A DNA stretch of 64,000 nucleotides from Fidelibacterota bacterium (GCA_014381925.1 JACNKR010000063.1:68867-132866); one strand, 5' to 3'; counted from the stretch's first letter, positions 35,705-52,757 are shown. Numbers and translations: made by a program. The notes: a model not told the origin generated them from the letters alone.

Positions 35705-36064
35705 ATGGGTTTAGATAAATTATATAAATTAGGTAAAACATTAGCTGTATTTACACTAACGGTTTTATTAATATCAATAACAGCTAAAGTATGGTGCGGT
35801 GGATGTGAAAATCGAAATAGTCGTTTTGGTAAATCATGTGCCGTTTCACCCTGTGCAAGTGGAAATCAAGAAGTTCAAGTCTTTGCATGGGATTCAGACA
35901 GTGGAGAAATTGACATCGAAGCAATTATAAGCGGTGAAGACTTAGACGATGAAACAAAAGCCATGCTAAAAAAAGCAATCAAAGATATTGATATCGATAT
36001 TGAGATAGATGGCGACGGAAATGAAGTAAAGAAAAAAGTAATGGTTAAAATTATCGGTGAATAA
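35705..36064 (+). CDS. hypothetical membrane-anchored Cys-rich, acidic protein
   Basis: 119 aa with an N-terminal TM followed by CGGC...C...C and a D/E/I-rich tail. No family recognised. Confidence 0.45.
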   Translation: MGLDKLYKLGKTLAVFTLTVLLISITAKVWCGGCENRNSRFGKSCAVSPCASGNQEVQVFAWDSDSGEIDIEAIISGEDLDDETKAMLKKAIKDIDIDIEIDGDGNEVKKKVMVKIIGE

Positions 36065-36279: not shown

Positions 36280-36597
36280 ATGCCACTTGCAAAAATAGAT
36301 ACATTTGATAACTCCGATAAGCAATTAGCAGATATAGCGAAAGCACTTTCTCATCCCGCTCGTATTAATATTCTTCGAATATTAAATGAGCGTAATTCTT
36401 GTATTACCGGAGAGATTGTTGATCTAATCCCCTTATCCCAATCAACGGTAAGTCAACACTTGAAGGAATTAAAACGGGTGAATCTAATAAAAGGGGAGAT
36501 TGAAGGTCCACGCACATGTTACTGTCTTAATGAAGATGTCGTTGAAAAAACAAAATCTGTATTTACAAAACTGTTTTCAACATTTAAGTGTTGTTAA
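36280..36597 (+). CDS. arsR: ArsR/SmtB-family metalloregulator
   Basis: 105 aa with wHTH ALSHPARINILRIL...STVSQHLKELK. It carries Cys pairs CYC and a C-terminal CC. Confidence 0.85.
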   Translation: MPLAKIDTFDNSDKQLADIAKALSHPARINILRILNERNSCITGEIVDLIPLSQSTVSQHLKELKRVNLIKGEIEGPRTCYCLNEDVVEKTKSVFTKLFSTFKCC

Positions 36598-36622
36598 ATA
36601 AAAATTAAAAAAAGGTAGAAAA

Positions 36623-37405
36623 ATGGAAAACAATGAAATGAAAAATATAGTCCAGGAAAAATATGCTGAAATTGCTACAGAAAATACATCTTGCTGTGGA
36701 TCTAATCCAGCAACAGATTATTCCGCTTTTAACTTAGATTATACCCGTTTAGACGGATATGTAGAGGATGCTGATCTACATCTTGGATGTGGTATTCCAA
36801 CAGAGCATGCTAATATCAAGCAGGGCGACACAATTGTCGACTTGGGTTCTGGTGCAGGAAACGATGTTTTTGTAGTTAGAAGCATTATTGGAGACAAGGG
36901 CAAGGTTGTTGGTATAGATATGACGCCTGAAATGGTTGATAAAGCAAATATGAATAAAGAAAAGCTCGGTTTTGAAAATGTTGAGTTCAAATTGGGTGAC
37001 ATTGAGAATCTTCCACTTGATGATGAAATAGGTGATGTGGTTGTGAGTAATTGCGTTCTTAATCTTGTGCCGGATAAAGAAATAGCTTTTAATGAGATTC
37101 ATCGTATTTTAAAACCAGGCGCACATTTTTGTGTTTCCGACATTGTGCTTGAAGGTCAAGTTCCACCAGAATTGAAAAAATCAGCAGAAATGTATGCAGG
37201 ATGTGTCTCTGGTGCTTTACAGAAAAATGAATATCTGGAAATAATTGAGAAAGTCGGGTTTAAAGATATTGAAGTGAAAAAAACTCGCGAAATTGTTTTA
37301 CCTCAAAATTTAATTCAATCATTTATGGATGATTCGCAATATGAAAAATATAATAAAAGCAATATAGGTATTTATAGCATTACGGTGGTGGCTACAAAAA
37401 AATAA
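36623..37405 (+). CDS. arsM: arsenite S-adenosylmethionine methyltransferase (ArsM-like)
   Basis: 260 aa. It has the SAM motif VDLGSGAGND and conserved Cys at SCCG, LGCGIP and AGCVSGA, as in ArsM. It lies directly after arsR. Confidence 0.8.
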   Translation: MENNEMKNIVQEKYAEIATENTSCCGSNPATDYSAFNLDYTRLDGYVEDADLHLGCGIPTEHANIKQGDTIVDLGSGAGNDVFVVRSIIGDKGKVVGIDMTPEMVDKANMNKEKLGFENVEFKLGDIENLPLDDEIGDVVVSNCVLNLVPDKEIAFNEIHRILKPGAHFCVSDIVLEGQVPPELKKSAEMYAGCVSGALQKNEYLEIIEKVGFKDIEVKKTREIVLPQNLIQSFMDDSQYEKYNKSNIGIYSITVVATKK

Positions 37406-37449: not shown

Positions 37450-37482
37450 AAAGTAATGGTGAAATTTATTGGTGAATAAATA
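37450..37482 (+). repeat. 33-bp direct repeat copy B (relic 3' end, 18-codon ORF MDLLKLLKNKVMVKFIGE*)
   Basis: AAAGTAATGGTGAAATTTATTGGTGAATAAATA. Two of the three differences from copy A are synonymous in the KVMVK(I/F)IGE* frame. Confidence 0.8.
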
Positions 37483-37504
37483 AAAATTTAGCCCTTCACA
37501 CAAT

Positions 37505-37522
37505 CCTCTCTAGTTAGAGAGG
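37505..37522. terminator. bidirectional hairpin terminator between convergent arsM and OMP genes
   Basis: CCTCTCTA-GT-TAGAGAGG is a perfect inverted repeat with AT-rich flanks on both sides. Confidence 0.6.
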
Positions 37523-37544
37523 AAATTAATTACTTTACTCTTAT

Positions 37545-38450
37545 TTAATTCAGTATTTCTCTTATGCTCAAGGAAATTGTCTTACCAATTAATTGACTGC
37601 CTTCTAGGTCATGATTAAACGGCTGATCATACATTAAAGATATTGAGCGAGTATTGGTCCATTTGTATTCTAAACCAACAGCACCATTTAATTGTTTTTT
37701 TGCAGAATTATTTTCAATCATTCCAATGCCTATTTCAGATGTACTATTTATGAAACGAAGTTTAAAATATGGATAAATTTCACCATAAACAGCTACCTGT
37801 CTAAGGGTTTGCAATTGAAGGTTGATTGAATTCCCCGGTTTATATCCTATGTCGCTTTCTGTAATGGGAACAGATGCAGAACCTGATACACCAAATACCC
37901 ACGGGAATTTAGATCTCCACCACCACTCAAAACCAAGAGAGCCTGAATATTGACCGGTACCTAATCTTAAACTTTTATCCTCCTCTGTTATTTTTTGACC
38001 TGTTGGTAATGTTATTTTACCATTAATAAATAATTTTTGTCCTGGCCCCATAACATTATTTTTTACTATCCAACGAAGATTTACAGAAATATCGCCCAAC
38101 CCTTTTTTAATTTTATTTTTATGTTCTGAATCAGGGCTTTCTTCAACATTATATTGATTCCATCTTTTAAATGGAATACTAACAAAAGCATTGATGTTTT
38201 CAGTTATTCCAAACATACCGTAAACATTTAACAAATTTAAATCTACATTGCCTTCTAACTCTATATTATTATCTGACTCAAAAGTCATATATGACATGCT
38301 GGTGCCAAGCATAATTTGATTACTACTTAAACCAACTCCTTCTGTTGCACTTCCGACCGAAAGTGTCGGGCTACTTCAAAGAGGGCATTGTGCAAATAAT
38401 AAGATTGGAAATAAACCAACTAATAAAGTAAATAATAATTTCTGTTTCAT
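37545..38450 (-). CDS. outer-membrane beta-barrel protein (MetA-pathway/transporter-like) with signal peptide joined through in-frame TGA: candidate CxxU selenoprotein
   Basis: Track ORF 37545..38312 lacks a signal peptide. The same frame continues upstream through 21 sense codons, then one TGA (38376..38378), then MKQKLLFTLLVGLFPILLFAQCPL from ATG 38450. A GLGDISVNLRW motif and a beta-strand pattern lie downstream. Confidence 0.65.
38348..38369 (-). other. candidate SECIS-like GC-rich stem-loop downstream of the OMP UGA
   Basis: The RNA is UGA-AGUAGCCCGACACUUUCGGUCGGAAGUGC. It has two alternative 5-bp stems: CCGAC/GUCGG, or CACUU/AAGUG with loop UCGGUCGG. The segment is about 62% GC in an AT-rich genome. 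Confidence 0.5.
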
Positions 38451-38507
38451 GATTTTTCTTTCTGTTTTTTATTTCAATTATATCTTAGATTGGATATTGC
38501 TAAGAAA

Positions 38508-39131
38508 TTAACAACAATAATTATTTTTATTTTGAGCTTTCTTAAAAGATTCTCTTCCTTCTTTAAAAGCAAAATAAGCAATTATTATTGAGCCTATTGC
38601 ATCTATTTGTTTAAATTCAAATAATTCATACCCAATACAGGAAATAAGTAAAACAAATGACAACTGCATACACACCTTTGTACAATTTGCATCAGCTATA
38701 ATTGCATCAGAATTTAATTTTTTACCTATTTCTAATTTTTCATGTACCAACCACCACATTACAATAATAGAACTTGTTGATACAATAATTCCCCAAAATG
38801 TAGTTATTGGATGAATTCCATAAATTAAATTATAAATTGATGTAATTGAAATCCCTAATGTTAATAGATAAAAAGAAGCTCCTGTAATTTGTAAAGCCCT
38901 TTTTTCAAATTGGTCTCTTTCATTAACATGATTTTTATTTACCCGTAGCATCATGTGAAAAATACCAATCCCTGAAATAACTTCTACAAATGAATCTAAC
39001 CCAAAACCAAACAAAGATAAAACTTCATCATCTAACCCAAAATATATAGAAATAATTCCTTCTATTAAATTATATACAATTGTAAAAATTGCTAATAAAA
39101 TTGCACGATTTATATTTGTATTACCCCTCAT
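38508..39131 (-). CDS. cation-transporter membrane protein (CDF-like transmembrane domain only), C-terminal CC
   Basis: 207 aa with about 6 TM, a GLDSFVEV motif and a tail ...NKNNYCC. It overlaps the czcA stop by 11 nt. Confidence 0.45.
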   Translation of the reverse strand: MRGNTNINRAILLAIFTIVYNLIEGIISIYFGLDDEVLSLFGFGLDSFVEVISGIGIFHMMLRVNKNHVNERDQFEKRALQITGASFYLLTLGISITSIYNLIYGIHPITTFWGIIVSTSSIIVMWWLVHEKLEIGKKLNSDAIIADANCTKVCMQLSFVLLISCIGYELFEFKQIDAIGSIIIAYFAFKEGRESFKKAQNKNNYCC

Positions 39132-42100
39132 CTGAAAACCATTGAAATAATGCGGGGATTACAAGTAAAGTTAAAATAGTTGAAGTAAACAACCCGCCGA
39201 CTACTACGGTTGCCAAAGGTCGTTGAACTTCGCTACCAGCTCCCGATGCAAATAGTAAAGGAAGCAATCCTAAAGATGTTGTTAATGCAGTCATTAATAC
39301 AGGCCTTAGTCTTAATTGAGCACCTTTAATAGATGCTTCATATTTTGTTGCCCCTTCTTTTACTAATTGATTCATATATGATAACAACACCATTCCATTT
39401 TCTAAAGCAATTCCAAAGAGAGCAATAAATCCAACAGAAGATGGAACAGATAAATTTTGCCCCGTGAGCCAAAGTGCAACAATTCCCCCTACAAGAGCGA
39501 GAGGAATATTGAGTAAAATAAGAAGTGAGTTTTTTAGAGAATTAAAACTAATAAACAATAATAAGAAAATAATAATTAGAGTAATTGGAACTACTACTGC
39601 TAGTCGTTTATTTGCTTCTTGTTGAAGCCGAAATTGTCCACCCCAATTAAGTAAATAACCTGGAGGTAAAACAACCTTCTCCTGAATTGCACTTTTTCCC
39701 TCTTCAACAAACGAGCCAATATCTCTATCAGAAACATTACATTGTATTGTGATAAATCGTTGATTATTTTCTCTTGTGATTTGGCGTGGCCCTGTAATTT
39801 CTTGGATATCAACTAATTCCGACAATGGAATGTTTATTCCACGAGGAGATTGCACAACTATATTAGAAATTGCCTCAACAGAATTTCTATATTTTTCTTC
39901 AAATCTAACTGTAATATCAAACCGTCTATTTCCTTCAAATATTTCTCCCACTTTTTCACCACCTATAGAAGAATGAACTATCTCTTGAATATCAGATATA
40001 TTTATACCATATCGAGCAATTGCCTGCCTATTAATCGTTATAAGTAATTGAGGAGTACCTGAAACTTGATCGACTTGTACATCATCAGCGCCAGGCACTT
40101 CACGAATAACGGCTGAAATTTTATCAGCTTTTGCTTTAAGTATTTCTAAATCATCTCCAAAAAGTTTAATTGCAAGCTCTGCTTTAATTCCTTCTAACAA
40201 TTCATCTACATTCATTGCAATAGGCTGAGTAATATTAACCAAAACGCCAGGCACATCATCAAGAGTTTCGCGAATTATACTTTCTAATCCATCTTGATTT
40301 AAATTAGGTCTCCAATTTCCTTTTTCAGCTAATATTACATACATTTCTGCACTATTTACAGGGTCTGCATGAGCCCCCACTTCACCTCTTCCTATTCGAG
40401 AAACAACGGAAGTAATTTCAGGAATACTCATCAATCTTTTTTCTATTGCTAGTGTGGTTTTTTTACTTTCGGTCAACGAAATAGATGGTGCCATTGAAAC
40501 CCTTACCACAATAGATCCTTCATTTAATTTTGGGGTAAACTCAGATCCTAATTGTGGAAAAATTGTAATTCCAGCTAATATTAAAAACACCGCTAAACTA
40601 ACAGCAATCGTTCTGTTTTTTACAAAATGAGTGATAATTGGAGTGTAAAATTTATTGAGTATTTTTACCAGCCAAATTTCTTTTACTAATTTTAAATCTT
40701 TCGGAATTTTTAGAACAAAGGTAGATAAAACAGGAGCAATTATTGTTGCATAAATCAAAGACCCAAACATTGCGATTGCGATTGTATATGCAAGAGGTCT
40801 AAATGTTTTTCCTTCTACGCCTTGCAAGGTAAATAAAGGTAAAAATACAATTATAATTATAATTATTGCAAAACTTACGGGTTTTATTACTTCTAAAAAT
40901 GCACTTGATATTAATTGTTTTTTCGATTTAGAATGCCCTGAACTTTTTAATACTTTTTCGATATTTTCAATAACAACAATTGCACCATCAACTAACATTC
41001 CAATCGCAATTGCTAATCCACCAAAAGACATTAAATTAGCCGAAATATTAAAGTAGTTCATTCCAATCATTGCAAATAAAACTGAAAATGGAATGGATGC
41101 CGCAACAACGATGCTTGGTCTAATTGAGCCCATAAAAATAAATAATATCAATACGACAAGAATAATTCCCTGTAATAATGCATTACTTACTGTTTTCACA
41201 CAAGCAGTTACTAGTGTTTTCTGTTCATAATATGGTACAATTTTAATTCCTTTGGGTAAAATATTATTTATTTCATCCATTTTTGTTTCAACTTGGCCTA
41301 TTACTGATGATGAATTAGTACCATAGAGCTTTACCACCATACCCGAAACAACCTCGCCTATTCCATTGTAAGTTTGAATACCTCGCCGTATTGCACCTCC
41401 AATTTCTATATTTGCAACTTCTTTAAGTAAAACGGGTGTACCAGATTCAGATTTAAGAATAATATTTTCAATATCCTCAATTCCAGACGCTAACCCAACG
41501 GAACGCACAATAAATTCTTCAGAGTTTTTTTCAATAAATTGTGCACCAACATTCAAATTATTATTTCTAATTTTTTCAATCACATCTTGAATCGTAATGT
41601 CATATTGCAATAGTGAAAAAGGGTTTATATTTACTTGATATTGTTTTTCATAACCACCAATTCCTAAAACTTCGGTAACCCCAGGTACTGTTTGAAGATG
41701 GAATTTGACAATCCAATCCTGAATAGATCGTAATTCTTCAAGAGAATATTGTCCACTTTCATCATCTAAATAATAAAACAATATTAACCCCATCCCTGTA
41801 GAAATTGGACCCATCTCGGGTTCTCCAAATCCTTCTGGGATTTGTTCTCTTGCTTCTTGAATTCGTTCATTTACCAACTGTCTAGCAAAATAAAGATCTG
41901 TTCCATCCTTAAAGTAAATATTCACGACTGATAATCCAAAATTAGAGACAGATCGAATTTTTGCTAATTCAGGCAAACCATTCATTGCAACCTCCACAGG
42001 ATATGTTACATATTTTTCTACTTCTTCAGGAGCAAGACCTTCAGTTGTTGTAAATACTTGTACTAAATTTGGTGATACATCGGGGAAAGCATCAATTGGA

Positions 42101-42198
42101 AGCTGTTTGTAACTGGTATAACCTGCGCCTAAAATAAGTACAGAAATTGTCAATATTAATAATCGATTTTGTAAAATAAATTGAATTAATTTTCCCAC
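39121..42198 (-). CDS. heavy-metal efflux RND pump, CzcA/CusA family
   Basis: 1025 aa with a GTG start and 12-TM RND architecture. Sequence is HME-type throughout. Confidence 0.92.
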   Translation of the reverse strand: MGKLIQFILQNRLLILTISVLILGAGYTSYKQLPIDAFPDVSPNLVQVFTTTEGLAPEEVEKYVTYPVEVAMNGLPELAKIRSVSNFGLSVVNIYFKDGTDLYFARQLVNERIQEAREQIPEGFGEPEMGPISTGMGLILFYYLDDESGQYSLEELRSIQDWIVKFHLQTVPGVTEVLGIGGYEKQYQVNINPFSLLQYDITIQDVIEKIRNNNLNVGAQFIEKNSEEFIVRSVGLASGIEDIENIILKSESGTPVLLKEVANIEIGGAIRRGIQTYNGIGEVVSGMVVKLYGTNSSSVIGQVETKMDEINNILPKGIKIVPYYEQKTLVTACVKTVSNALLQGIILVVLILFIFMGSIRPSIVVAASIPFSVLFAMIGMNYFNISANLMSFGGLAIAIGMLVDGAIVVIENIEKVLKSSGHSKSKKQLISSAFLEVIKPVSFAIIIIIIVFLPLFTLQGVEGKTFRPLAYTIAIAMFGSLIYATIIAPVLSTFVLKIPKDLKLVKEIWLVKILNKFYTPIITHFVKNRTIAVSLAVFLILAGITIFPQLGSEFTPKLNEGSIVVRVSMAPSISLTESKKTTLAIEKRLMSIPEITSVVSRIGRGEVGAHADPVNSAEMYVILAEKGNWRPNLNQDGLESIIRETLDDVPGVLVNITQPIAMNVDELLEGIKAELAIKLFGDDLEILKAKADKISAVIREVPGADDVQVDQVSGTPQLLITINRQAIARYGINISDIQEIVHSSIGGEKVGEIFEGNRRFDITVRFEEKYRNSVEAISNIVVQSPRGINIPLSELVDIQEITGPRQITRENNQRFITIQCNVSDRDIGSFVEEGKSAIQEKVVLPPGYLLNWGGQFRLQQEANKRLAVVVPITLIIIFLLLFISFNSLKNSLLILLNIPLALVGGIVALWLTGQNLSVPSSVGFIALFGIALENGMVLLSYMNQLVKEGATKYEASIKGAQLRLRPVLMTALTTSLGLLPLLFASGAGSEVQRPLATVVVGGLFTSTILTLLVIPALFQWFSDEG

Positions 42199-42286
42199 AA
42201 TAGCTTTCCCCTTTTTTATCTAACCATTAACTTTAAATATGATTCAAATATGTTAATTGATTAAAGTTGTAATTCTTAATTTCTAA

Positions 42287-43249
42287 TTAATGATTATGAC
42301 CACCGCCAAATGAAGATTTAGCTATTTGGGCTTTCAATATAAAACCACCTTTTTTAACATATTGTTGACCAATTTTTAATCCTGACAATATTTCTACAAA
42401 TTCAGAATTTTGTTGACCAATTTTTATATTAATAGGTTCATATCCATGTTCATTTTTTGTAAAGACTACATCTAAACCTTTTATAGTTTCAATTGCTGTT
42501 TTTGGAATCATAATACTACAACTAGATTGACTAATGGTAACAAACCCGGTAATAAACTGTCCTGGCCGAAGCCATCCATATGAATTAGAAAGCACTACTC
42601 GAGCAATTGCTGTTCGTGTATGTTCATCAATTGTAGGTGATATAAATGAAATTTCGCCCGATATTGAAGGAAAATCTTTTTTAATTAAAACATTTACAGT
42701 TTGTCCAATTTTTAATTGTGTCAAATATTTTTGATAAACGCTTAAATTCAACCATACTTTTGAAAGATTTGCGATTGCAAAGAAATTATCTGAATTTTGA
42801 GCCGTTTCTCCTTTTGTAAAGTGCATATCAATTATAATACCATTAATTGAAGATTTTAACTCATAAACGGTAAGACTTTCATTACTTTCAATAATTGCAA
42901 GTAAATCACCCTCGTTAACTTTATCACCAATTTGTTTATAAACCTCTTTTACTAATCCACCAAAACGAGGAGTAATATGCACCAGTCTATCAGGATCCAG
43001 CTGTATTTCTCCAGGTAATTCAATTGTTTTATTTAAAATGCCACTTGAAGCAATATCAACCTCAGCCCCAAATTCAAAAAGTACTTTTTCAGTAATATTT
43101 TCTTTATGATCTTCATGATCACCATGTCCAGAATGGCTTTCATGTTCCTGTATTGAATAATTATTTTGATGTGAATTCACCATTTCTTTTGTAACCCAAA
43201 AGGTAATGAGTGCTGTTATAATTATTGTACTAAGTATAATTTTTTTCAT
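42287..43249 (-). CDS. efflux RND periplasmic adaptor (CzcB/CusB-like) with His-rich termini
   Basis: 320 aa with an N-terminal anchor, then HESHSGHGDHEDHKE, a lipoyl/beta-barrel MFP core and a C-terminal GGGHNH. Confidence 0.85.
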   Translation of the reverse strand: MKKIILSTIIITALITFWVTKEMVNSHQNNYSIQEHESHSGHGDHEDHKENITEKVLFEFGAEVDIASSGILNKTIELPGEIQLDPDRLVHITPRFGGLVKEVYKQIGDKVNEGDLLAIIESNESLTVYELKSSINGIIIDMHFTKGETAQNSDNFFAIANLSKVWLNLSVYQKYLTQLKIGQTVNVLIKKDFPSISGEISFISPTIDEHTRTAIARVVLSNSYGWLRPGQFITGFVTISQSSCSIMIPKTAIETIKGLDVVFTKNEHGYEPINIKIGQQNSEFVEILSGLKIGQQYVKKGGFILKAQIAKSSFGGGHNH

Positions 43250-43280
43250 TTAACTAAAGCCCTAAATTTTATTATATTCA

Positions 43281-44087
43281 TCAATGATTATGATGATGAT
43301 CGTCATTGTCATTGTCATTGTGATTATGTTGATGCTCCTCTTCATGATGCTGGGTATCATCTTCTGTATTTTTTTCTAAATGAGTTTCATGAAGGTGTTG
43401 AATTTCTAATTTATCAGTTATTGCTTTTGCAGAATAATATCCATTTAATTGAAATACGAGTAAAAATGAGCCTGCAATTATTAACATCCAATTTGTCACT
43501 ATTGAAATATTAGATAATTTTTTCCGTAACAAAAGTAATATTGGAAAAGCGATTACTAAAGCTGTTATTTGCCCAATTTCAACACCTGCATTAAAAGATA
43601 AAATTTTATAAACTAATTGATGGTGTCCCAAGTCAATTTGTTGCAAACGAGTTGAAAGGCCAAACCCATGAATTAATCCAAATATAAACACCATAAAAAC
43701 TTTATTTGGTACATTTATGGATAACCATTTATTGAAACCATCAAGATTTTCAAATCCTTTATAAATAACACTGAATGCAATTACAGCATCAATTAAATAA
43801 TAATTTGCATTTATCTCATAAAATGTAGCAAAAATAAGAGTGATACTATGTCCTATGGTAAATGCTGTGATAAATTTTGCAATGTCAGCAAGTCGGGATA
43901 AAAAGAAAATCACTCCAATTAAAAACAATATATGATCATAGCCTGTTATCATATGTTTTGCTCCTAGTATAAAAAAATCTGAAAGCCCACCTTGAACCAT
44001 TTCCACCTTATCCGATTCTGACACACCATGTGCAAAGATAAATGAAGGTAAACACAATATTGATAATTTTAAAAATAAGTTTTTCAT
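43281..44087 (-). CDS. HupE/UreJ-family membrane protein with His/Asp-rich C-terminal tail
   Basis: 268 aa with a signal peptide followed by HGV, and multiple TM segments. The tail is HLHETH...HHEEEHQHNHNDNDNDDHHHNH. Confidence 0.65.
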   Translation of the reverse strand: MKNLFLKLSILCLPSFIFAHGVSESDKVEMVQGGLSDFFILGAKHMITGYDHILFLIGVIFFLSRLADIAKFITAFTIGHSITLIFATFYEINANYYLIDAVIAFSVIYKGFENLDGFNKWLSINVPNKVFMVFIFGLIHGFGLSTRLQQIDLGHHQLVYKILSFNAGVEIGQITALVIAFPILLLLRKKLSNISIVTNWMLIIAGSFLLVFQLNGYYSAKAITDKLEIQHLHETHLEKNTEDDTQHHEEEHQHNHNDNDNDDHHHNH

Positions 44088-44088
44088 T

Positions 44089-45306
44089 TTAATTTTCTCC
44101 TAAAAATGAGTGATTTGTTCTCCCGAGAATACGATTAATTTCCCAGGTTTTATTATGATAGTCTTGAAGAGCATTTAAATATTGAATCTGAGATAGAAAC
44201 CACATTTCTTTAGCATCTACAACCTCTAAATAAGTATATCGTCCATTCATATATCCATCCATTATAATTGAATATGCTGAATTTGCTTCAGGTATAATCA
44301 TTGTTTCCAATAGTATAATCTCAGATTTAATTTCATTTAATGAATTGATAATATTTTCAATTTGAGAATTAATATCATTTTTTATTTTTATTAATTCAAG
44401 TTGAGTCATTTCTAATACAGAAAGTTCTCGGTTAATATTGCCATTATTTTGATTAAAAAGAGGAATAGGTAATGTTACCCCTAATTGGAAAGAATTCCCT
44501 AATTCATTTTTTTTTATTCCTGTTCCAAATTCAATATCTGGTATTATTTTTAATTTTTCTAATTTAACTTTTATATTTTGAATTTGAATTTGAATGTTTG
44601 CTTGAACTATTTTAGGTGCAATATTTATATTAAATTCATTATTTATTTTAAATGGTGTGGAAAAATGATATAAATCTGATAAATGTCCTACTGCAATATT
44701 ATAAGACAAACTATTATCTTCATAAAATGTAGATAATGAATTCCAGGCATTGGGTAATTGGTTTTCAATTTTCAATAATTTTATTTTTTCTTGATATAAT
44801 TGAATTTTTGCCCGAGATGCTTCAACGGGAGAAAATTTACCTGCAATAACTTTCTTTTTTACCGCTTCTAATAATTCTTCAGAAATTAATATTCGGTTTC
44901 TCTGAAGTGATTTCATTTCCTGATAAAAAAGAATTTCGATAAATAAGTGATATGATTCATTTAAAACCTGAGATTTTTGTTCATCATATTCTAATTTGGC
45001 TAAATTTAATTCAAATTCTCTTAATTGAATATTTTGTTTTCGTTTCCCTCCAAGTAAAATATCTTGAGTAAGCATTCCACTTATCTCGGGTTCAATTCCA
45101 AAATCAGATTCAATTGACAAGTTTGGATTAGAAAATTTTCGACTTTGTTTTAATTGCGCCGTTTTTACTTCAACATTTTTTTTACTTAACTTAAGTATTG
45201 AATTATGTTGAAGGACAATATCTGTAAGCGTATTAATATTTAGTTCTTGACTAAAAGTACACGATATTAAAATGACATAAATTAGCCATTTAATTAATAA
45301 ATTCAT
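44089..45306 (-). CDS. TolC-family outer membrane efflux protein (CzcC-like)
   Basis: 405 aa with a signal peptide and coiled-coil/beta repeats typical of OEP. It occupies the first structural position of the RND operon. Confidence 0.8.
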   Translation of the reverse strand: MNLLIKWLIYVILISCTFSQELNINTLTDIVLQHNSILKLSKKNVEVKTAQLKQSRKFSNPNLSIESDFGIEPEISGMLTQDILLGGKRKQNIQLREFELNLAKLEYDEQKSQVLNESYHLFIEILFYQEMKSLQRNRILISEELLEAVKKKVIAGKFSPVEASRAKIQLYQEKIKLLKIENQLPNAWNSLSTFYEDNSLSYNIAVGHLSDLYHFSTPFKINNEFNINIAPKIVQANIQIQIQNIKVKLEKLKIIPDIEFGTGIKKNELGNSFQLGVTLPIPLFNQNNGNINRELSVLEMTQLELIKIKNDINSQIENIINSLNEIKSEIILLETMIIPEANSAYSIIMDGYMNGRYTYLEVVDAKEMWFLSQIQYLNALQDYHNKTWEINRILGRTNHSFLGEN

Positions 45307-45375
45307 GGTATTCCTTTCTAAAAAATTAATTATAGCGGTTACATTAACCGGAAAATCAAATAATAAAAAGGGTGT

Positions 45376-45777
45376 TTAAGTTAGAAGTATTGTTGTTTTT
45401 ATAAAGAGGGGTGTAGGAGGTAGAATTGTTTCTACCTGTTGAATAGAAAACTGAGAGTTCTGAAATTGCTCAAAAGGTGTTATTGTGAATTCAAAAATAT
45501 AATTATCAATTACAACATTATTTGAGTGACTTAAAAAATTTAAATCTGGATTATAGTTCCAAAACGGAATATCAAAACAATTATCGCAATCATCTTGATG
45601 TTCATCTGTTTTTTGGACAGGAACACGACATGCAATATCACATTCCGCTTCAATATTGATATGACCATCAGTTTCAAAACATAAAACCGGTGCTTCAATT
45701 CCATTTTGAAGTAATATTCCAAAACAAAAAACCCAAACAAATATTTGATGAATGATATTTTTTCTCTGTTTTCTCAT
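45376..45777 (-). CDS. hypothetical secreted/anchored Cys-His-Asp-rich protein leading the efflux operon
   Basis: 133 aa with an N-terminal TM, then CFETDGH...ECDIAC...DEHQDDCDNC. No family recognised. Confidence 0.45.
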   Translation of the reverse strand: MRKQRKNIIHQIFVWVFCFGILLQNGIEAPVLCFETDGHINIEAECDIACRVPVQKTDEHQDDCDNCFDIPFWNYNPDLNFLSHSNNVVIDNYIFEFTITPFEQFQNSQFSIQQVETILPPTPLFIKTTILLT

Positions 45778-45898
45778 TTGTTAAATATATTAAATAAATT
45801 AGATATAATTGGTGCGATTAAAAAAATGATTATTACCCCTAAAAATAGTATAATCATATATAAAAATAAGAAGCTAAAACCTCTTTCTCCGATAATTT

Positions 45899-46765
45899 TT
45901 ATTTATAAGTTAATAATCCATTTTTAAAAACAAATTTACCATTTGAATTTATTACTGCAAACGGGATAGAGTTTTTATTTATAGATTCATATCCAATTAA
46001 AATTAATTTTTCACCGGGGTAAACAGGATAGCCAAAACGACCATTTATACTAATTAATTGACCAATATCATTATTTAATATTTTTTCAATTAAATTTGAA
46101 CAGCTCATTGACATAACACACGCACCATGTAAAATAGTCCCTTTAAAACCAGCCAGCTTTGCTAATAATGGATTTATATGTATAAAATTAAAATCACCTG
46201 AAACTTCTGCAAATTTTAACTCTTGACCTTTTTCAGTTTGCATTTCAATTCTAAATTTTTCTTTCAAATCTTTAGTTTGTTCTATGTTTTTTCGAGGATT
46301 TTTTAATTTTTTTCGAACAATAAACCCTGTTTGAGATTCCACGACGAGTACATTTTTATTAAACCCACGTCCACTAATTTTAATTTTTTCTCCTACAGGA
46401 GTTTCTATTATATTATTAATTTCTATTTTTATTTTTAATTGATCATCCACTTTTAATGGGTTATGCCATATAATTTTCTGGTCTGCAAATACACCCCTTA
46501 ATAAATTTATATTTAAACCTTCATGAATTAGTAATTTTTTTATTAATGGAAATGTAAGTTTATAAAGTAAAAATGGAGGTGCATAATATTTACTAAAATA
46601 AGCGGGATTATTATCTTTAGTTGCATTAGAAAACAGTTCGATATCTTGGTGTGAAATTGGTTTTATGATTTCTTCAAATGAATAACCAATCATGTTTCTA
46701 TTCATTTTATACGAATTTATATTCTTAATTAATGATTTAAAAAGTTTCCAATCAAATGATGACAA
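45899..46765 (-). CDS. MaoC-family double hotdog dehydratase
   Basis: 288 aa with the MaoC motif SGDFNFIHINPLLAKLAGFKGTILHG. Confidence 0.75.
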   Translation of the reverse strand: MSSFDWKLFKSLIKNINSYKMNRNMIGYSFEEIIKPISHQDIELFSNATKDNNPAYFSKYYAPPFLLYKLTFPLIKKLLIHEGLNINLLRGVFADQKIIWHNPLKVDDQLKIKIEINNIIETPVGEKIKISGRGFNKNVLVVESQTGFIVRKKLKNPRKNIEQTKDLKEKFRIEMQTEKGQELKFAEVSGDFNFIHINPLLAKLAGFKGTILHGACVMSMSCSNLIEKILNNDIGQLISINGRFGYPVYPGEKLILIGYESINKNSIPFAVINSNGKFVFKNGLLTYK

Positions 46766-46766
46766 A

Positions 46767-47267
46767 TTAAATCCATTCCTCTAATTCTAATAATTTTATT
46801 TTCATATCTAATCCACCCCCATAACCCCCAAGCCCTCCATTTTGAGCAATTACACGATGACATGGTATTACTATTGGAAGTGTATTTGTTGCATTAGCAG
46901 TACCAACGGCACGCATTGCTTTTGGATGACCAATATTTTTTGCTATTTCACCATACGATTTTGTCTGTCCAAAAGGTATTTTTGTTACAGCTGTTAATAC
47001 TTTTTTTCTAAAATCTGTTGTAAATAATTGATATTTAAAAGTGAATACTTTTCTTTGTGCAAAAAAATATTCTTCAAGTTGAGTTTTAGCCAGAGATTGT
47101 GGATTTTTATATTTCTTAAATGTATTATAATTTAATTTTTTTTTACACCAATTTTTTATTTTCTCTTTACTGGAATCGGGTAATCCAATATAAACTACAA
47201 TACTTTTATATTCAACTATTGTTAAATTTCCAATTGGTGTGCTGACATTATAATATCTTAAATCCAT
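46767..47267 (-). CDS. ogt: methylated-DNA--protein-cysteine methyltransferase
   Basis: 166 aa with the active-site IPCHRVI motif. Confidence 0.9.
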   Translation of the reverse strand: MDLRYYNVSTPIGNLTIVEYKSIVVYIGLPDSSKEKIKNWCKKKLNYNTFKKYKNPQSLAKTQLEEYFFAQRKVFTFKYQLFTTDFRKKVLTAVTKIPFGQTKSYGEIAKNIGHPKAMRAVGTANATNTLPIVIPCHRVIAQNGGLGGYGGGLDMKIKLLELEEWI

Positions 47268-49972: not shown

Positions 49973-50310
49973 TCAATTGCTTTTCGGATTAATATTCCTG
50001 TTAATCCAGAAACACCACCTATAATTATGGGTAAAATTAATATAATAATTGCTAGCATGAATGAATTATTTACATTCATCATTGTTGCAACTCTAGCCAT
50101 TAAAATTTCTCCACCAATTATCCATCTATAAAATAAAATAATTGCCCATGTAATTGTTAATGTGGAGCTTCCTATCTGAATAGCAGATATATTACTTTCC
50201 GCCATTGCCCCGATTATTACACAATAAATTACACCAGCCCACCATGGTAAAAAATATAATACAGGAAATAATATTAAAACAAAAACAGACATTTTTTTAA
50301 TGTAATTCAT
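49969..50310 (-). CDS. hypothetical small multi-TM membrane protein
   Basis: 113 aa with 3-4 TM. Its ATG overlaps the acylase TGA stop (ATGA). Confidence 0.4.
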   Translation of the reverse strand: MNYIKKMSVFVLILFPVLYFLPWWAGVIYCVIIGAMAESNISAIQIGSSTLTITWAIILFYRWIIGGEILMARVATMMNVNNSFMLAIIILILPIIIGGVSGLTGILIRKAID

Positions 50311-52757
50311 GAATTTTCTCCATTAATAATGATAACTTTTCCATTAATATCTTCAGGGTTTGAACTTGAATTAATATCTCTTAGTTCTCCAGCTCTCCAT
50401 TCTTCAAGCATATTATCATAATATTTACTTCCAGGATATCCAGATTGACCTCCAGGTAAAATCCCTTTTGCTTTTGGAGGTGAGGACATTTCAACAATAT
50501 ATCTCCACGAAGGACCAAAATGTTTTCGAGTTGCATTTGGAATTAATTTTCCACCACCTGTTGATAAATTTTCGACACCAAATCCTGGAATTTTAGCAAG
50601 ATGTAAAATATCTGTTCCTCTATAATTCCCCCAGAACCATAATTCAGATAATTGACCCACTTCTTGAGTTAACAAATTAATTGTATTTTCAAAACTTTTA
50701 TATACTAAGTCAGAAAAAAGTTCTTTTTTATTTGTATTAATGTTGTCAATCCATTTAGAATTTTGTTCTTTTGTAATTAACCGTTCCAATCGTGCATAGT
50801 CTGGCCAAAGAATTTCATCATATGATTTTCCTAGTTCATCTTCCCAAACAAGATTTTCAAATTGATCAATCCATTCATTATATATTGTTGGTGCAATTTT
50901 ATCAGCATCAAAGAAATAATTCCACTTAATTAACTCAGCAACAGGTTGAATAAAATGTGGTTTTAATAATGTATCATTTAAAACAGACAGAAAAACAGGA
51001 AGTACTCTTTCTGCCATTAAATTTTTATTATCCGTTTGAATTTCTATAAAATCATCAAATGTTGCATTTTTTAATGATGTTAAGTGTTGATTAATTCGCT
51101 CTCCTCTAAATGATTCTACAAACCATGGTCCTAAATAATATGGATAGTTTTCATCCGTTATATGTTGATTTGCAGAACTTACAAATCCTCTTTTAGGGTT
51201 TTTTATATGTGCCTTTTCATTATGCGGAATTGCATCATTCCAATTATATTGAGGATTTGTTCCATCCATCACAAAGCGTCCTTGGTTTTTCCATTTTTGT
51301 GGTGTATTTCCGGCATGCCAAATTGCAATATTTCCATCAATGTCTGCATATACAAAATTTTGAACGGGGCATGTAAAATATTGAAGTGCATCGACATAAT
51401 CTTGATAATTTTTTGCCTTATTTAATTCATAAAATGTTTTACTTTCTGCACTTGAATCATGAGCTAACCATCTCAATGCTCTTCCAACGGACAACATTTC
51501 TCCGCTTTGATTTCGTTCATTGTGCATTCTTTTTGTTTGGCCTTCATGCGTCCAAACAACAGGGCCAAAATGAGTATAAATTACAGTATCAATGAAGCTT
51601 TTTTCACCTCTAATTTTTATCTCTTCAATTTTCTTTTCTGTTGTTAGCCATTCATTATCATAAAAATATTGATTCATTTTATTTGATTTAAATACAATAT
51701 CATACCAATCCCAAACATCATCACCACCATTTGTTTCGCCCCAAGCAATATAATCATTAAATCCACTAATAACACATGGTCCTCCAGGGAGAGAGGCACC
51801 ATAAACATTAAACTCAGGGGTATTTAAATGAATTTGATACCAAATATTTGGTAATGTTAGACCTAAATGTGGGTCATTTGACAAAAGAGGAAACCCTGAT
51901 TTTGTTTTTGATCCGTCAACAGCCCAATTATTACTTCCAATTCGTGCATCCGGCTGTATCAAAACCTTATCTTGATATGGGTTTGCACGATAAAGTGAAT
52001 CAGGAAATGGTATTGATTTAATAGGTTTTGCAAATGGAGTCTCTTTAGGAATAATTGGATCTAAATAATTAGGAAACTCTGGATACAAATCGTTTAAATC
52101 TTCCATACCAATTTTATCCCATAATTTATTAAAATCAAGGTCTGAAGATCTACCACTTAAACTAAATGCCATTGTTTTAAGAAATAATAAAGTCTTTAAG
52201 GGTGTCCATTTTTCAGGTTTATAATCTAATATTTTATATTCAATTGGATATTGATCCCAATTTAAAGAATTAATATAAGCATTAACTCCGTCAGCATAAG
52301 CCTCTATACCACTATATACATTTTTATGTTTCATTGTTTCTATTAGGCCTTTTTCAGCAGAATAGACCATTCCTATTCGTCGTTGGTATTGATCAAAAGG
52401 TAATGCCTTTGGGCCAATAATTTCTGAAATTCTTCCACCTGCGGCCATTGTTTGAAACTCCATTTGCCAAAGCCTATCAAAAGCAGTGATATATCCCTGT
52501 GTAAAACATAAATCATAATCATTTTTTGCAAAAATATGGGGCACATGATTTTCGTCAATTATTAATTTGACTTCATTCTGAATTTCATCAAAGTTTAATA
52601 TATTTTTATTATGAATATCTGAATTGACAAGGGATAAAAAACCATGAAATGGATCTAAAAACGTTGCTAATGGGGGGATATTTCCCATTTTATTATTAAG
52701 TAAAATTGTTATTCCGATAAGAAAAAAAATGCTAATAATTGCTTTAATATATTTCAT
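50307..52757 (-). CDS. S45 penicillin-amidase-family Ntn-hydrolase acylase (penicillin/AHL acylase-like)
   Basis: 816 aa with a signal anchor, HVPHIFA and a GSNNWAV nucleophile-Ser motif. Its ATG overlaps the ccmD stop (ATGA). Confidence 0.8.
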   Translation of the reverse strand: MKYIKAIISIFFLIGITILLNNKMGNIPPLATFLDPFHGFLSLVNSDIHNKNILNFDEIQNEVKLIIDENHVPHIFAKNDYDLCFTQGYITAFDRLWQMEFQTMAAGGRISEIIGPKALPFDQYQRRIGMVYSAEKGLIETMKHKNVYSGIEAYADGVNAYINSLNWDQYPIEYKILDYKPEKWTPLKTLLFLKTMAFSLSGRSSDLDFNKLWDKIGMEDLNDLYPEFPNYLDPIIPKETPFAKPIKSIPFPDSLYRANPYQDKVLIQPDARIGSNNWAVDGSKTKSGFPLLSNDPHLGLTLPNIWYQIHLNTPEFNVYGASLPGGPCVISGFNDYIAWGETNGGDDVWDWYDIVFKSNKMNQYFYDNEWLTTEKKIEEIKIRGEKSFIDTVIYTHFGPVVWTHEGQTKRMHNERNQSGEMLSVGRALRWLAHDSSAESKTFYELNKAKNYQDYVDALQYFTCPVQNFVYADIDGNIAIWHAGNTPQKWKNQGRFVMDGTNPQYNWNDAIPHNEKAHIKNPKRGFVSSANQHITDENYPYYLGPWFVESFRGERINQHLTSLKNATFDDFIEIQTDNKNLMAERVLPVFLSVLNDTLLKPHFIQPVAELIKWNYFFDADKIAPTIYNEWIDQFENLVWEDELGKSYDEILWPDYARLERLITKEQNSKWIDNINTNKKELFSDLVYKSFENTINLLTQEVGQLSELWFWGNYRGTDILHLAKIPGFGVENLSTGGGKLIPNATRKHFGPSWRYIVEMSSPPKAKGILPGGQSGYPGSKYYDNMLEEWRAGELRDINSSSNPEDINGKVIIINGENS

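What the first reader, a model, noticed from the sequence alone, without database searches (positions are those of the whole stretch)
37545..45777. Seven-gene heavy-metal RND operon with unusual inserted components
The minus-strand order, tightly spaced or overlapping, is as follows. First a 133-aa anchored Cys/His/Asp-rich protein (CFETDGH, ECDIAC, DDCDNC), then a TolC/CzcC-like OMF. Next is a HupE/UreJ-family membrane protein with a long HxH/ND tail (HHEEEHQHNHNDNDNDDHHHNH), followed by a CzcB-like adaptor with His-rich N and C termini and a CzcA/CusA pump. After the pump comes a 207-aa CDF-like membrane-only protein ending YCC, which overlaps czcA by 11 nt. The last gene is the UGA-containing OM barrel. 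Canonical czc/cus operons are C-B-A. A HupE/UreJ (Ni/Co-type) permease inserted between the OMF and the adaptor, plus a truncated CDF and a second OM protein, make an atypical layered arrangement of inner-membrane, periplasmic and two outer-membrane parts.
Basis: partly seen in the sequence, partly recalled or inferred. Interest (0 to 1): 0.6.

Follow-up and report, generated by a model that had tools for sequence, protein, structure and literature searches.

The report
Metal-efflux operon with selenoprotein outer-membrane barrel
A marine Marinimicrobia bacterium carries a heavy-metal efflux pump operon with a HupE-like permease, a small cysteine-rich protein and an outer-membrane protein that very probably contains selenocysteine, so it is a new variant of a known kind of metal-resistance system.

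Summary
Gaps are 69, 1, 31, 88, -11 and 57 nt. The window comes from a Candidatus Marinimicrobia MAG.

Related loci change the picture.
- **Conserved unit:** six genes, not seven: Cys-rich 133-aa protein, OMF, HupE_UreJ_2, MFP, HME-RND, barrel. It recurs in Marinimicrobia lineages down to about 50% identity.
- **CDF gene:** the TMD-only CDF occurs only in the window and its 98% relatives. Its transport site is D,E/C,C and it ends in YCC.
- **HupE link:** HupE_UreJ_2 beside an HME-RND pump is not unique. About 9-11 of 80 loci from other phyla have OMF-MFP-RND-HupE. A Ni-induced Sphingobium cluster was published in 2017.
- **Barrel:** this is the most novel part. Its in-frame UGA (CxxU just after the signal peptide) is conserved. 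It becomes UxxU in 17+ loci and CxxC in distant relatives. A hairpin with compensatory changes follows it, so it is very probably a selenoprotein. Relatives sit in a merR-merA operon and beside MbnP/MbnH.
- **Pump-less variants:** clean deletions of the pump keep HupE and the barrel.

Verdict: a real, probably co-transcribed metal efflux or homeostasis system and a new variant of a known kind. Substrate and HupE direction are inferred.

The parts
45376..45777 (-). g1: 133-aa protein with an N-terminal membrane anchor or uncleaved signal and a Cys/His/Asp-rich periplasmic part. It is the first gene of the cluster.
   Evidence: ORF. No Pfam, NCBIfam or PDB match. The family has 45 clusters, all 131-135 aa. 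Invariant residues are C33, E35, G38, N41, E43, C46, C50, C64, C67, D69, W73 and P77; H39, H60, Q61 and D62 are nearly invariant. It always lies directly upstream of the OMF. AF2 places a helix at residues 2-23 and is otherwise low confidence.
44089..45306 (-). Outer-membrane factor (TolC/CzcC-like)
   Evidence: PF02321 OEP, E 9.4e-36, two stretches. The best NCBIfam hit is IhpA, far below its cutoff.
43281..44087 (-). HupE_UreJ_2 inner-membrane permease with a signal peptide, an N-terminal His after the predicted cleavage site (FIFA|HG) and a His/Asp/Asn-rich C-terminal tail
   Evidence: PF13795 scores 177 bits. PF04955 scores 22.8 bits, just under its cutoff of 23. Invariant residues are H20, H45, D51, H52, H80 and H140. 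There are 7863 homologues, the closest named Candidatus Marinimicrobia.
42287..43249 (-). Periplasmic adaptor (CzcB/IhpB-like MFP) with His-rich termini
   Evidence: HlyD_D23, E 4.8e-35. TIGR01730 scores 107.9 against a cutoff of 94.9. IhpB scores 255 against 450.
39121..42198 (-). HME-RND inner-membrane pump
   Evidence: TIGR00914 scores 1125.7 bits. The best PDB matches are ZneA at 707 bits and CusA at 682 bits. The TM4 motif is AIGMLVDGAIVVIEN. CusA M573/M623/M672 correspond to R/S/E. The D405, E412 and E939 equivalents are kept.
38508..39131 (-). CDF transporter with the transmembrane domain only. It is a lineage-specific insertion and overlaps the RND gene by 11 nt.
   Evidence: PF01545 scores 40.7 bits against a cutoff of 26.6. 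Aligned to E. coli FieF/YiiP, the site-A residues D45/D49/H153/D157 become D46/E50/C150/C154, and there is no C-terminal domain. It is present only in the window, L119 and L120. NCBI names it 'cation transporter', MBC8197901.1.
37545..38450 (-). Probable outer-membrane beta-barrel selenoprotein. The signal peptide MKQKLLFTLLVGLFPILLFA is followed by Q-C-P-L-U.
   Evidence: Read-through translation. Orthologues at 89% and 76% identity keep the UGA. The whole gene has dN/dS of 0.11-0.16. Sub-threshold PF13557 hits occur in four family members. Most relatives end in an aromatic residue. Only 29 clusters were found among 1.84 billion representatives.
38376..38378 (-). In-frame UGA, the proposed selenocysteine codon of the CxxU motif (Cys codon at 38385-38387)
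   Evidence: The partner Cys position is itself UGA (UxxU) in L013, L014, L098-L112, L114, L115 and L116. Distant relatives P0188, P0193 and P0194 have CxxC at this place in their N termini, by inspection of the sequences.
38348..38365 (-). SECIS-like hairpin CACUUUC-GGUC-GGAAGUG, starting 10 nt after the UGA
   Evidence: On 9 distinct sequences, 90.5% of cells are paired. Two pairs change on both sides and one position shows four pair types. G and U in the loop are invariant. Slid controls pair only 25-51% of cells.
37504..37523 (-). 8-bp hairpin 22 nt after the barrel stop codon, in the convergent gap with arsM. It is a possible terminator for the cluster.
   Evidence: Fold of 37470-37550: -19.2 kcal/mol, z -2.65, and 2 of 200 shuffles fold as well. 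The simple terminator scan did not call it.
45778..45898 (-). 121-nt AT-rich gap upstream of g1, the presumed promoter region
   Evidence: This is the largest gap flanking the cluster. An alignment of five upstream regions shows no conserved operator. No regulator gene is consistently adjacent.

Best explanation
This is a chromosomal metal-efflux or metal-homeostasis operon of a Candidatus Marinimicrobia bacterium.

**Shown.**
- The core is a tripartite HME-RND pump made of OMF, MFP and RND.
- Three accessory genes are conserved with it: an anchored Cys-rich 133-aa protein (g1), a HupE_UreJ_2 permease between the OMF and MFP genes, and a small outer-membrane barrel at the end.
- In this lineage a TMD-only CDF has also been inserted.

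**Inferred mechanism.**
- The RND pump lacks the CusA methionine triad. It has acidic and His residues at those positions, and its adaptor is His-rich. It therefore most likely expels a divalent cation (Zn, Cd, Co or Ni type) from the periplasm using the proton gradient.
- HupE_UreJ_2, and here also the CDF with its Cys-substituted site and YCC tail, are probably inner-membrane conduits. They would connect the cytoplasmic metal pool to the periplasm, as CzcD or NreB do in known systems.
- g1 and the barrel's N-terminal C-x-x-Sec segment would act as periplasmic thiol/selenol ligand-exchange stations for a thiophilic metal. The barrel would provide a second route through the outer membrane.
- The barrel's UGA is decoded as selenocysteine, directed by a hairpin 10 nt downstream.
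For: **Families and layout.**

**Conservation of the cluster.**
- Six-gene synteny holds at 47-85% identity in L013/L014 and L015, and over the parts covered by the shorter contigs L010 and L103-L105. L111 and L112 hold OMF to RND plus a disrupted barrel start.
- The full seven-gene set is present in the 98% relative L119. L120 breaks off after the CDF.
- All genes are under purifying selection, with dN/dS of 0.06-0.39.

**HupE and the pump.**
- In other phyla HupE_UreJ_2 lies immediately downstream of an HME-RND gene on the same strand. This holds in about 9 of 80 loci, plus 2 more nearby.
- Most of those pumps are CzcA-type (DFG..D..EN), with H/V/E at the CusA triad positions.
- In Sphingobium sp. 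ba1 a HupE/UreJ-like gene in an RND+NreB cluster was the most strongly Ni-induced gene (PMC5557971).
- The CusA Met triad is absent from the window pump.

**CDF.** Site A is D,E/C,C and there is no C-terminal domain.

**Selenoprotein case for the barrel.**
- The UGA is conserved.
- Cys is exchanged for UGA at the partner position in 17+ loci.
- Distant relatives carry CxxC.
- The hairpin shows covariation.
- UGA is otherwise a stop codon in this genome.

**Metal context of barrel relatives.** One lies in merR-merA-Trx_3-barrel (L115). Another lies in MauG-MbnP-MbnH-barrel (L113).
Against: - No expression data exist, and co-transcription is not shown (one search is uninformative).
- No metal-sensing regulator is consistently adjacent.
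- Characterised HupE/UreJ proteins are Ni/Co importers (cited; family knowledge). An export role for HupE_UreJ_2 is therefore an inference.
- Clean deletions of MFP-RND have arisen independently in both barrel subfamilies. They keep HupE and the barrel, and g1 where the contig reaches it. So these genes have a pump-independent role.
- Barrel relatives sit with MerA and MbnP/H, which are inward-trafficking contexts.
- L004-L006 have the pump with g1 and HupE but no barrel.
- The beta-barrel fold is not demonstrated. AF2 gave pLDDT 27 and the Pfam hit is below threshold.
- No selA, selB, selD or tRNA-Sec was found in the window or in the other fetched loci.
- The substrate metal is unknown. TM4 is AIG (CusA-like) rather than DFG.
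Confidence: 0.6

Rival explanations
1. Import-plus-overflow island. The barrel (outer membrane), g1 (periplasm) and HupE_UreJ_2 (inner membrane) form an uptake route for a scarce trace metal such as Ni, Co, Zn or Cu. The RND pump, and here the CDF, are the overflow valve encoded alongside.
For: - Characterised HupE/UreJ proteins are Ni or Co uptake facilitators (reference cited; family knowledge).
- HupE and the barrel, plus g1 where the contig shows it, persist after clean deletion of the pump in two independent lineages. In the window versus L007 comparison they have dN/dS of 0.13-0.18.
- Barrel relatives sit with MerA, where mer transport proteins carry Hg inward, and with MbnP/MbnH, which are linked to Cu acquisition.
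- The organism lives in the metal-poor open ocean.
Against: - Putting an importer and an exporter of the same metal in one tight operon is counter-productive unless they are regulated differently.
- The HupE-like gene in the Sphingobium RND cluster is induced by excess Ni.
- In about 9 of the 80 loci from other phyla, HupE_UreJ_2 occupies the position directly after an HME-RND pump gene, the slot taken by accessory exporters in known czc-type operons.
- PF13795 is only distantly related to the characterised PF04955 family (22.8 bits).
Confidence: 0.25
2. Juxtaposition without functional coupling. The pump operon, the CDF and the barrel are separate transcription units that merely lie next to each other.
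For: - The CDF is a recent insertion.
- The barrel is missing from L004-L006 and stands 155-160 nt from the RND gene in L013 and L015.
- Co-transcription is untested.
Against: - The order g1-OMF-HupE-MFP-RND-barrel is conserved on one strand at dS above 1.
- The barrel follows the cluster even after the pump is deleted.
- The RND and CDF genes overlap by 11 nt, and the OMF and HupE genes are 1 nt apart.
- Barrel relatives elsewhere also sit in metal loci.
Confidence: 0.1
3. The UGA in the last gene is a real stop. Either the gene is a pseudogene, or the protein starts at the Met at 38312 and is not exported.
For: - Gene callers start the protein after the UGA (253-255 aa).
- No Sec machinery was seen in the window.
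Against: - The 24 codons upstream encode a conserved signal peptide that ends exactly at Q-C-P-L-UGA.
- The UGA is kept at 76% identity. It is doubled to UxxU in 17+ loci from lineages with different GC content.
- CxxC homologues exist.
- The hairpin covaries at synonymous sites.
- dN/dS across the whole gene is 0.11-0.16.
Confidence: 0.03

Closest known systems
czcCBA with czcD of Cupriavidus metallidurans (HME-RND Co/Zn/Cd efflux with an accessory CDF; my own knowledge of Nies and co-workers)
   Same: It has the tripartite OMF-MFP-RND pump of the CusA/CzcA family (TIGR00914), a His-rich adaptor, a small protein gene upstream of the OMF (the position CzcI occupies), and a CDF encoded in the same cluster.
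   Different: - TM4 reads AIG..D..EN instead of DFG..D..EN.
- A HupE_UreJ_2 gene splits C from B.
- The CDF lacks the cytoplasmic domain and has Cys at the H153 and D157 positions.
- There is no czcRS two-component system nearby.
- g1 has no detectable homology to any Pfam family.
- There is an additional Sec-containing barrel.
cusCFBA of E. coli (Cu(I)/Ag(I) HME-RND)
   Same: Similarity to CusA (682 bits) is comparable to that with ZneA. The TM4 motif is the same AIG-type. In both, a small gene for a periplasmic protein is part of the operon.
   Different: The Met triad M573/M623/M672 corresponds to R/S/E, and most transmembrane Met pairs are missing. The adaptor is His-rich rather than Met-rich. 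There is no CusF homologue.
Ni-induced cluster of Sphingobium sp. ba1 (RND + NreB + HupE/UreJ-like; PMC5557971)
   Same: A HupE/UreJ-like permease gene is embedded in an HME-RND efflux cluster. It is transcriptionally induced by metal excess.
   Different: The phylum and gene order differ. That cluster has no g1, no Sec barrel and no TMD-only CDF. Its HupE-like protein is also functionally uncharacterised.
OMF-MFP-RND-HupE_UreJ_2 clusters in Gammaproteobacteria, Bdellovibrionota, Acidobacteriota and Planctomycetes (L019, L029, L034, L055, L068, L075, L082, L089, L094)
   Same: HupE_UreJ_2 lies on the same strand and immediately beside an HME-RND pump.
   Different: HupE follows the pump instead of sitting between the OMF and MFP genes. 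Most of those pumps are CzcA-type DFG. tblastn finds no g1 or barrel homologues there.
Known metal-related selenoproteins and the one listed outer-membrane-barrel selenoprotein (review PMC13188914): MerT-like C/SxxU, HMA-type UxxU 'putative mercuric reductase' NF041115, SO_0444 Cu/Zn efflux transporter UxC, and the GSU2204 MtrB/PioB-family barrel NF041027
   Same: Sec sits in a C/UxxU-type motif in proteins implicated in heavy-metal handling. There is precedent for two closely spaced UGAs and for a selenoprotein in an outer-membrane barrel.
   Different: The window barrel matches no NCBIfam model, including all the selenoprotein models. It is a small MetA/COG4313-like barrel, not an MtrB/PioB one. 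The motif lies at the mature N terminus.
PcoB/CopB-type copper outer-membrane proteins and COG4313/Phenol_MetA_deg channels (my own knowledge)
   Same: These are small outer-membrane barrels. In PcoB/CopB a metal-binding N-terminal extension faces the periplasm. There is weak similarity to PF13557.
   Different: No hit reaches the family threshold. The ligands are Cys/Sec rather than Met/His. The fold could not be modelled.

Membership tests
HME-RND (CusA/CzcA family, TIGR00914) | Full-length match above the curated cutoff, with 12-TM RND architecture | tested here: met
   1125.7 bits against a cutoff of 701.45. PF00873 covers model positions 2-1020 of 1021.
HME-RND (CusA/CzcA family, TIGR00914) | Charged proton-relay residues in TM4 and TM10 (CusA D405, E412, E939) | tested here: met
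   D, E and E are conserved in the window and in three orthologues. The K984 equivalent is V.
CusA-type Cu(I)/Ag(I) pump | Periplasmic methionine triad M573/M623/M672 | tested here: not met
   R, S and E stand at the aligned positions.
CzcA-type (HME1/2) divalent pump | TM4 motif DFG-x3-D-GA-x3-VEN | tested here: not met
   The window reads AIGMLVDGAIVVIEN, with the first Asp replaced by Ala.
Outer membrane factor (PF02321 OEP) | Two OEP repeats above the gathering score | tested here: met
   123.8 bits against 22, in two stretches.
RND adaptor (TIGR01730 RND_mfp) | Score above the curated cutoff | tested here: met
   107.9 against 94.9. The CzcB/NccB subfamily model TIGR00999 scores 133.9 against 319.3, and IhpB scores 255 against 450; neither is met.
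HupE_UreJ_2 (PF13795) | Domain match above the gathering score | tested here: met
   177.1 bits against 24.5, covering model positions 1-155 of 156.
Classical HupE/UreJ Ni permeases (PF04955) | Domain match above the gathering score | tested here: not met
   22.8 bits against a cutoff of 23, which is marginal.
Classical HupE/UreJ Ni permeases (PF04955) | Signal peptide exposing an N-terminal His, and an H-x5-D-H type motif in TM1 | tested here: met
   FIFA|HGVSE and KHMITGYDH are present. H20, H45, D51 and H52 are invariant in 21 sequences.
Classical HupE/UreJ Ni permeases (PF04955) | Ni or Co uptake activity | not testable with these tools
   This needs transport assays.
Cation diffusion facilitator (PF01545) | TMD match above the gathering score | tested here: met
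   40.7 bits against 26.6. TIGR01297 scores 31.5 against 82.35, which is not met.
Cation diffusion facilitator (PF01545) | Cytoplasmic C-terminal (ZT_dimer) domain | tested here: not met
   The protein ends 10-15 residues after TM6. The alignment to FieF lacks residues ~210-300.
Cation diffusion facilitator (PF01545) | Site A quartet on TM2 and TM5 (YiiP D45, D49, H153, D157) | tested here: inconclusive
   The aligned residues are D46, E50, C150 and C154. It is a plausible site but a deviant, thiophilic one, and the pairwise identity is only 21%.
Bacterial selenoprotein | In-frame UGA conserved among orthologues, with conserved coding sequence on both sides | tested here: met
   dN/dS is 0.11-0.16.
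Bacterial selenoprotein | Homologues with Cys at the UGA position | tested here: met
   By inspection of the sequences, P0188, P0193 and P0194 have CxxC directly after the signal peptide. The partner position alternates between Cys and UGA.
Bacterial selenoprotein | Stem-loop immediately downstream of the UGA (bSECIS) with a conserved G-U in the loop | tested here: met
   There is a 6-7 bp stem 10 nt after the UGA, with an NGUY loop. 90.5% of cells are paired and two pairs are compensatory. Rfam reports no match at gathering threshold.
Bacterial selenoprotein | selA, selB, selC and selD in the same genome | not testable with these tools
   None was found in the 64-kb window or the other fetched loci. 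The rest of the MAG could not be read. A related contig holds an Rdx-family fragment.
Phenol_MetA_deg / COG4313 outer-membrane channel (PF13557) | Domain match above the gathering score | tested here: not met
   21.5 bits against 22. Relatives score 16.7-19.5 bits.
Outer-membrane beta-barrel in general | Signal peptide, a C-terminal aromatic beta-signal and a barrel fold | tested here: inconclusive
   A signal peptide is present. Most relatives end in F, W or Y, but the window subfamily ends in N. The AF2 model is unusable at pLDDT 26.6.

The most novel reading that the evidence does not exclude
The last gene founds an undescribed selenoprotein family. Its members are small outer-membrane barrels whose mature N terminus carries a [C/U]-x-x-U motif. 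They are recruited to thiophilic-metal loci: HME-RND with HupE_UreJ_2 in Marinimicrobia, merR-merA elsewhere, and a CxxC form beside MbnP/MbnH. On this reading the barrel, the Cys-rich anchored protein g1 and HupE_UreJ_2 form a selenol/thiol metal-relay route across the envelope. The route works with or without the RND pump.
Probability: 0.4. Interest if true: 0.75.

Novelty: new variant of a known kind. Interest (0 to 1): 0.6.

Why it matters
- **An unexplained accessory protein.** HME-RND operons are textbook systems. The accessory proteins that feed or gate them are poorly known outside Cupriavidus and E. coli. This work shows that HupE_UreJ_2 is a recurrent partner of such pumps in several phyla and has no known role. 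That makes a testable question of whether this family exports or buffers metal rather than importing it.
- **A candidate new selenoprotein family.** The barrel would place selenocysteine at the outer membrane of an abundant, uncultured marine phylum. It would link selenium use to trace-metal or mercury handling in the ocean.
- **A natural experiment.** The pump-less deletion variants show which parts of the system work on their own.

Tried and rejected
- **Structure prediction.** AF2 was run on the barrel (3-sequence alignment, pLDDT 26.6) and on g1 (43 sequences, pLDDT 47.4). Both models were unusable, so no fold searches were run.
- **PDB searches.** Sequence and profile searches with HupE, the CDF, g1 and the barrel found nothing meaningful.
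- **Promoter and terminator scan.** Counts were at or below shuffle expectation, so the scan says nothing for or against an operon.
- **RNA searches.** Rfam at gathering threshold found only tRNA-His. ARAGORN found no tRNA-Sec.
- **Sec machinery.** tblastn with E. coli SelA, SelB and SelD against the window and all the other loci gave no hits.
- **Other selenoprotein genes in the window.** A scan for other in-frame UGA genes found none that was convincing.
- **SECIS stem.** RNAfold's MFP-independent minimum-energy stem after the UGA (CCGAC/GUCGG) was rejected. L007 breaks it (G to U), while the alternative CACUUUC/GGAAGUG stem is invariant or compensated.
- **CusA-type Cu/Ag pump.** Rejected because the Met triad is absent.
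- **UGA reassignment.** Rejected because UGA ends HupE and one other long ORF.
- **ArsR as regulator.** ArsR at 36280-36597 was considered as the cluster's regulator. It is paired with arsM and is adjacent only in the window and L119.
- **Upstream operator.** An alignment of the regions upstream of g1 found no conserved operator.
- **Genome scan coverage.** Within-phylum synteny therefore rests on metagenome contigs.

Full report
**Observation**

The region 37545-45777 holds seven co-directional minus-strand ORFs, exactly as described. Pfam and NCBIfam give the following.

| Gene | Coordinates | Assignment |
|---|---|---|
| g1 | 45777-45376 | 133 aa, no family hit |
| OMF | 45306-44089 | PF02321, E 9.4e-36 |
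| HupE-like | 44087-43281 | PF13795 HupE_UreJ_2, E 2.6e-52 |
| MFP | 43249-42287 | RND adaptor, TIGR01730 above cutoff |
| RND | 42198-39121 | TIGR00914 CusA/CzcA family, 1125.7 bits against 701 |
| CDF | 39131-38508 | 207 aa, PF01545 40.7 bits against 26.6, TMD only |
| Barrel | 38450-37545 | one in-frame TGA; PF13557 21.5 bits against 22 |

- Gaps are 69, 1, 31, 88, -11 and 57 nt.
- A stable hairpin follows the last stop codon (-19.2 kcal/mol, z -2.65).
- The consensus promoter and terminator scan is uninformative.
- The proteins are on record as a Candidatus Marinimicrobia/Neomarinimicrobiota MAG (MBC8197901-906). They are annotated only generically.

**What is conserved**

Contexts came from homologues of HupE, g1 and the barrel. 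They fall into five architectures.

| Architecture | Loci |
|---|---|
| Seven genes, including the CDF | window and its 98% relative L119; L120 breaks off after the CDF |
| Six genes: g1-OMF-HupE-MFP-RND-barrel | L013/L014 and L015 in full; the parts covered by L010 and L103-L105. L111/L112 hold OMF to RND plus a disrupted barrel start. RND-barrel adjacency in L098, L099, L108, L109 |
| Five genes, no barrel | L004-L006 |
| Pump-less: g1, OMF(1-141), HupE, barrel | L007-L009 in full; L011 and L012 show HupE-barrel. The other barrel subfamily has HupE-scar-barrel in L101 and L102 |
| HupE alone | L001-L003 |

- The conserved unit therefore has six genes. The CDF is a recent, lineage-specific insertion.
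- The pump-less forms are clean deletions. L101 and L102 keep the MFP start ATGAAGAAA joined to the last ~12 nt of the RND gene. The L007 junction lies at the HupE stop codon.
- All genes are under purifying selection, with dN/dS of 0.06-0.39.

**HupE beside a pump is not unique**

- A scan of one genome per species with a HupE alignment returned 80 loci from many phyla.
- tblastn showed an HME-RND gene immediately upstream on the same strand in about 9 of them, in the order OMF-MFP-RND-HupE. Two more have one nearby. The lineages include Cellvibrio, Colwellia, Aliiglaciecola, Arenimonas, Arsukibacterium, Pseudobdellovibrionaceae, Solibacteraceae, Vicinamibacterales and Planctomycetales.
- Most of those pumps are CzcA-type (DFG..D..EN), with H/V/E where CusA has its Met triad.
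- In Sphingobium sp. ba1, a HupE/UreJ-like gene inside an RND+NreB cluster was the most strongly Ni-induced gene. The authors called this counter-intuitive (PMC5557971).
- I found no paper that characterises the association.
- What is particular to Marinimicrobia is the position of HupE between the OMF and MFP genes, together with g1 and the barrel.

**The pump**

- The best solved relatives are ZneA (707 bits) and CusA (682 bits).
- The CusA triad M573/M623/M672 corresponds to R/S/E. D405, E412 and E939 are kept. TM4 is AIG-type like CusA, not DFG like CzcA or ZneA.
- With His-rich adaptor termini, a divalent cation is the more likely substrate. This is inference.

**The CDF**

Aligned with E. 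coli FieF/YiiP, the site-A positions D45, D49, H153 and D157 are D46, E50, C150 and C154. The cytoplasmic domain is absent and the protein ends YCC. This suggests a thiophilic substrate, but the pairwise identity is only 21%.

**g1**

- The family has 45 clusters, all 131-135 aa, and the members with names or context are from Marinimicrobia. Five Cys and several acidic residues are invariant, and two His are nearly so. The C-terminal K-T-T-I-L-L is conserved.
- It has an N-terminal hydrophobic helix, and a Pro follows the likely cleavage site. It is probably anchored.
- No homology to any known family was found.

**The barrel is probably a selenoprotein**

- The reading frame runs MKQKLLFTLLVGLFPILLFAQ-C-P-L-UGA-SSPTLSVGS....
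- Orthologues at 89% and 76% identity keep the UGA and the flanking codons.
- In a second subfamily the Cys codon is also UGA (GQ-U-A-L-U-SNPSLPVGS). This holds in L013/L014 and in all 15 metagenome loci, despite divergent signal peptides and barrels.
- Two further lineages with higher GC read WGQ-U-P-L-U (L114, L115/L116).
- By inspection of their sequences, distant relatives carry CxxC at this place: TACDIC, ACDMCGC and ACDACG.
- Ten nucleotides after the UGA there is a 6-7 bp hairpin with an NGUY loop. Across nine distinct sequences 90.5% of cells pair and two pairs change on both sides. One position shows U:A, G:C, U:G and C:G, partly through synonymous changes. Sliding the partners drops pairing to 25-51%.
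- UGA is otherwise a stop codon here.
- Sec machinery could not be examined.
- The family is tiny, with 29 clusters among 1.84 billion representatives. It matches no NCBIfam model.
- A 2026 review of prokaryotic selenoproteins lists one outer-membrane-barrel selenoprotein, from a different family (GSU2204, MtrB/PioB). It lists nothing resembling this one.
- The barrel fold rests on three things: the signal peptide, repeated sub-threshold PF13557 hits, and aromatic C termini in most relatives. AF2 failed.

**Contexts of barrel relatives**

- P0168 lies in merR-merA-Trx_3-barrel. Its MerA has GMTCASC, the CVNVGC active site and a C-terminal CC.
- P0193, a CxxC form, follows CCP_MauG-MbnP-MbnH.

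Both contexts point to thiophilic-metal handling.

**Mechanism**

- *Shown:* family memberships, synteny, purifying selection, the Sec signature, and the existence of pump-independent variants.
- *Inferred:*
  - The RND complex removes a divalent metal from the periplasm.
  - HupE_UreJ_2, and here the CDF, link the cytoplasmic pool to the periplasm.
  - g1 and the barrel's C/UxxU segment exchange metal through thiol or selenol ligands.
  - The barrel gives a second outer-membrane route.
- *Main rival:* the barrel, g1 and HupE form an uptake route, with the pump as overflow. This is supported by the importer activity of characterised HupE proteins, by the pump-less variants, and by the mer and Mbn contexts. 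It is opposed by Ni induction in Sphingobium and by the position of HupE_2 directly after the pump gene in other phyla.

**Verdict**

This is a real and largely conserved operon-like cluster. It is a new variant of HME-RND metal systems. Its most novel component is a probable new selenoprotein family. Substrate, direction of transport and co-transcription remain to be tested.

Noticed in passing
window 36280-37405 (+): An ArsR/SmtB regulator (105 aa, ending KCC) sits next to an arsenite methyltransferase ArsM (NF008823, 317 bits). The pair is convergent with the cluster. The same pair is adjacent in L119 but not in other related loci.
   Followed up: partly
window 35705-36064 (+): A 119-aa protein has no family hit. 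It has an N-terminal hydrophobic segment, a Cys cluster (CGGCENRNSRFGKSCAVSPCASG) and an acidic DIDIEIDGDG repeat. It lies just upstream of ArsR.
   Followed up: no
L115 7436-10816 (GCA_024278595.1) and L116: A mer-type operon reads merR, merA, an 81-aa Thioredoxin_3 protein (CRLC), then a UxxU barrel of the same family as the window's last gene. No merT or merP was seen in the 20-kb stretch.
   Followed up: partly
L113 2994-6994: A CxxC-type relative of the barrel (P0193, ACDMCGC after the signal peptide) directly follows CCP_MauG, MbnP and an MbnH-like gene. This is a copper-associated periplasmic module.
   Followed up: no
L007-L009, L011, L012; L101, L102: Independent natural deletions remove MFP-RND (and the CDF). 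In the L007 group most of the OMF is also lost. HupE and the barrel are kept, and g1 too where the contig reaches it. L101 and L102 retain a scar made of the MFP start fused to the RND end.
   Followed up: yes
L006 1312-1488: A 58-aa gene call hits PF10262 (Rdx, the SelW/SelT family). It may be another truncated selenoprotein call in a related Marinimicrobia contig.
   Followed up: no
window 43281-43283: HupE ends in TGA, one of only two TGA stops among about 50 long ORFs in the window (the other is the ORF at 50307-52757). TAA dominates.
   Followed up: partly
window 45899-47267 (-): A MaoC-like dehydratase (288 aa) and an O6-methylguanine-DNA methyltransferase (166 aa) lie directly upstream on the same strand. 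They are not conserved next to the cluster in other loci.
   Followed up: partly
L077 45-5949: A Marinobacter contig carries two to three tandem HupE_UreJ_2 copies near a CusA-type pump (MMM triad) on the opposite strand.
   Followed up: no
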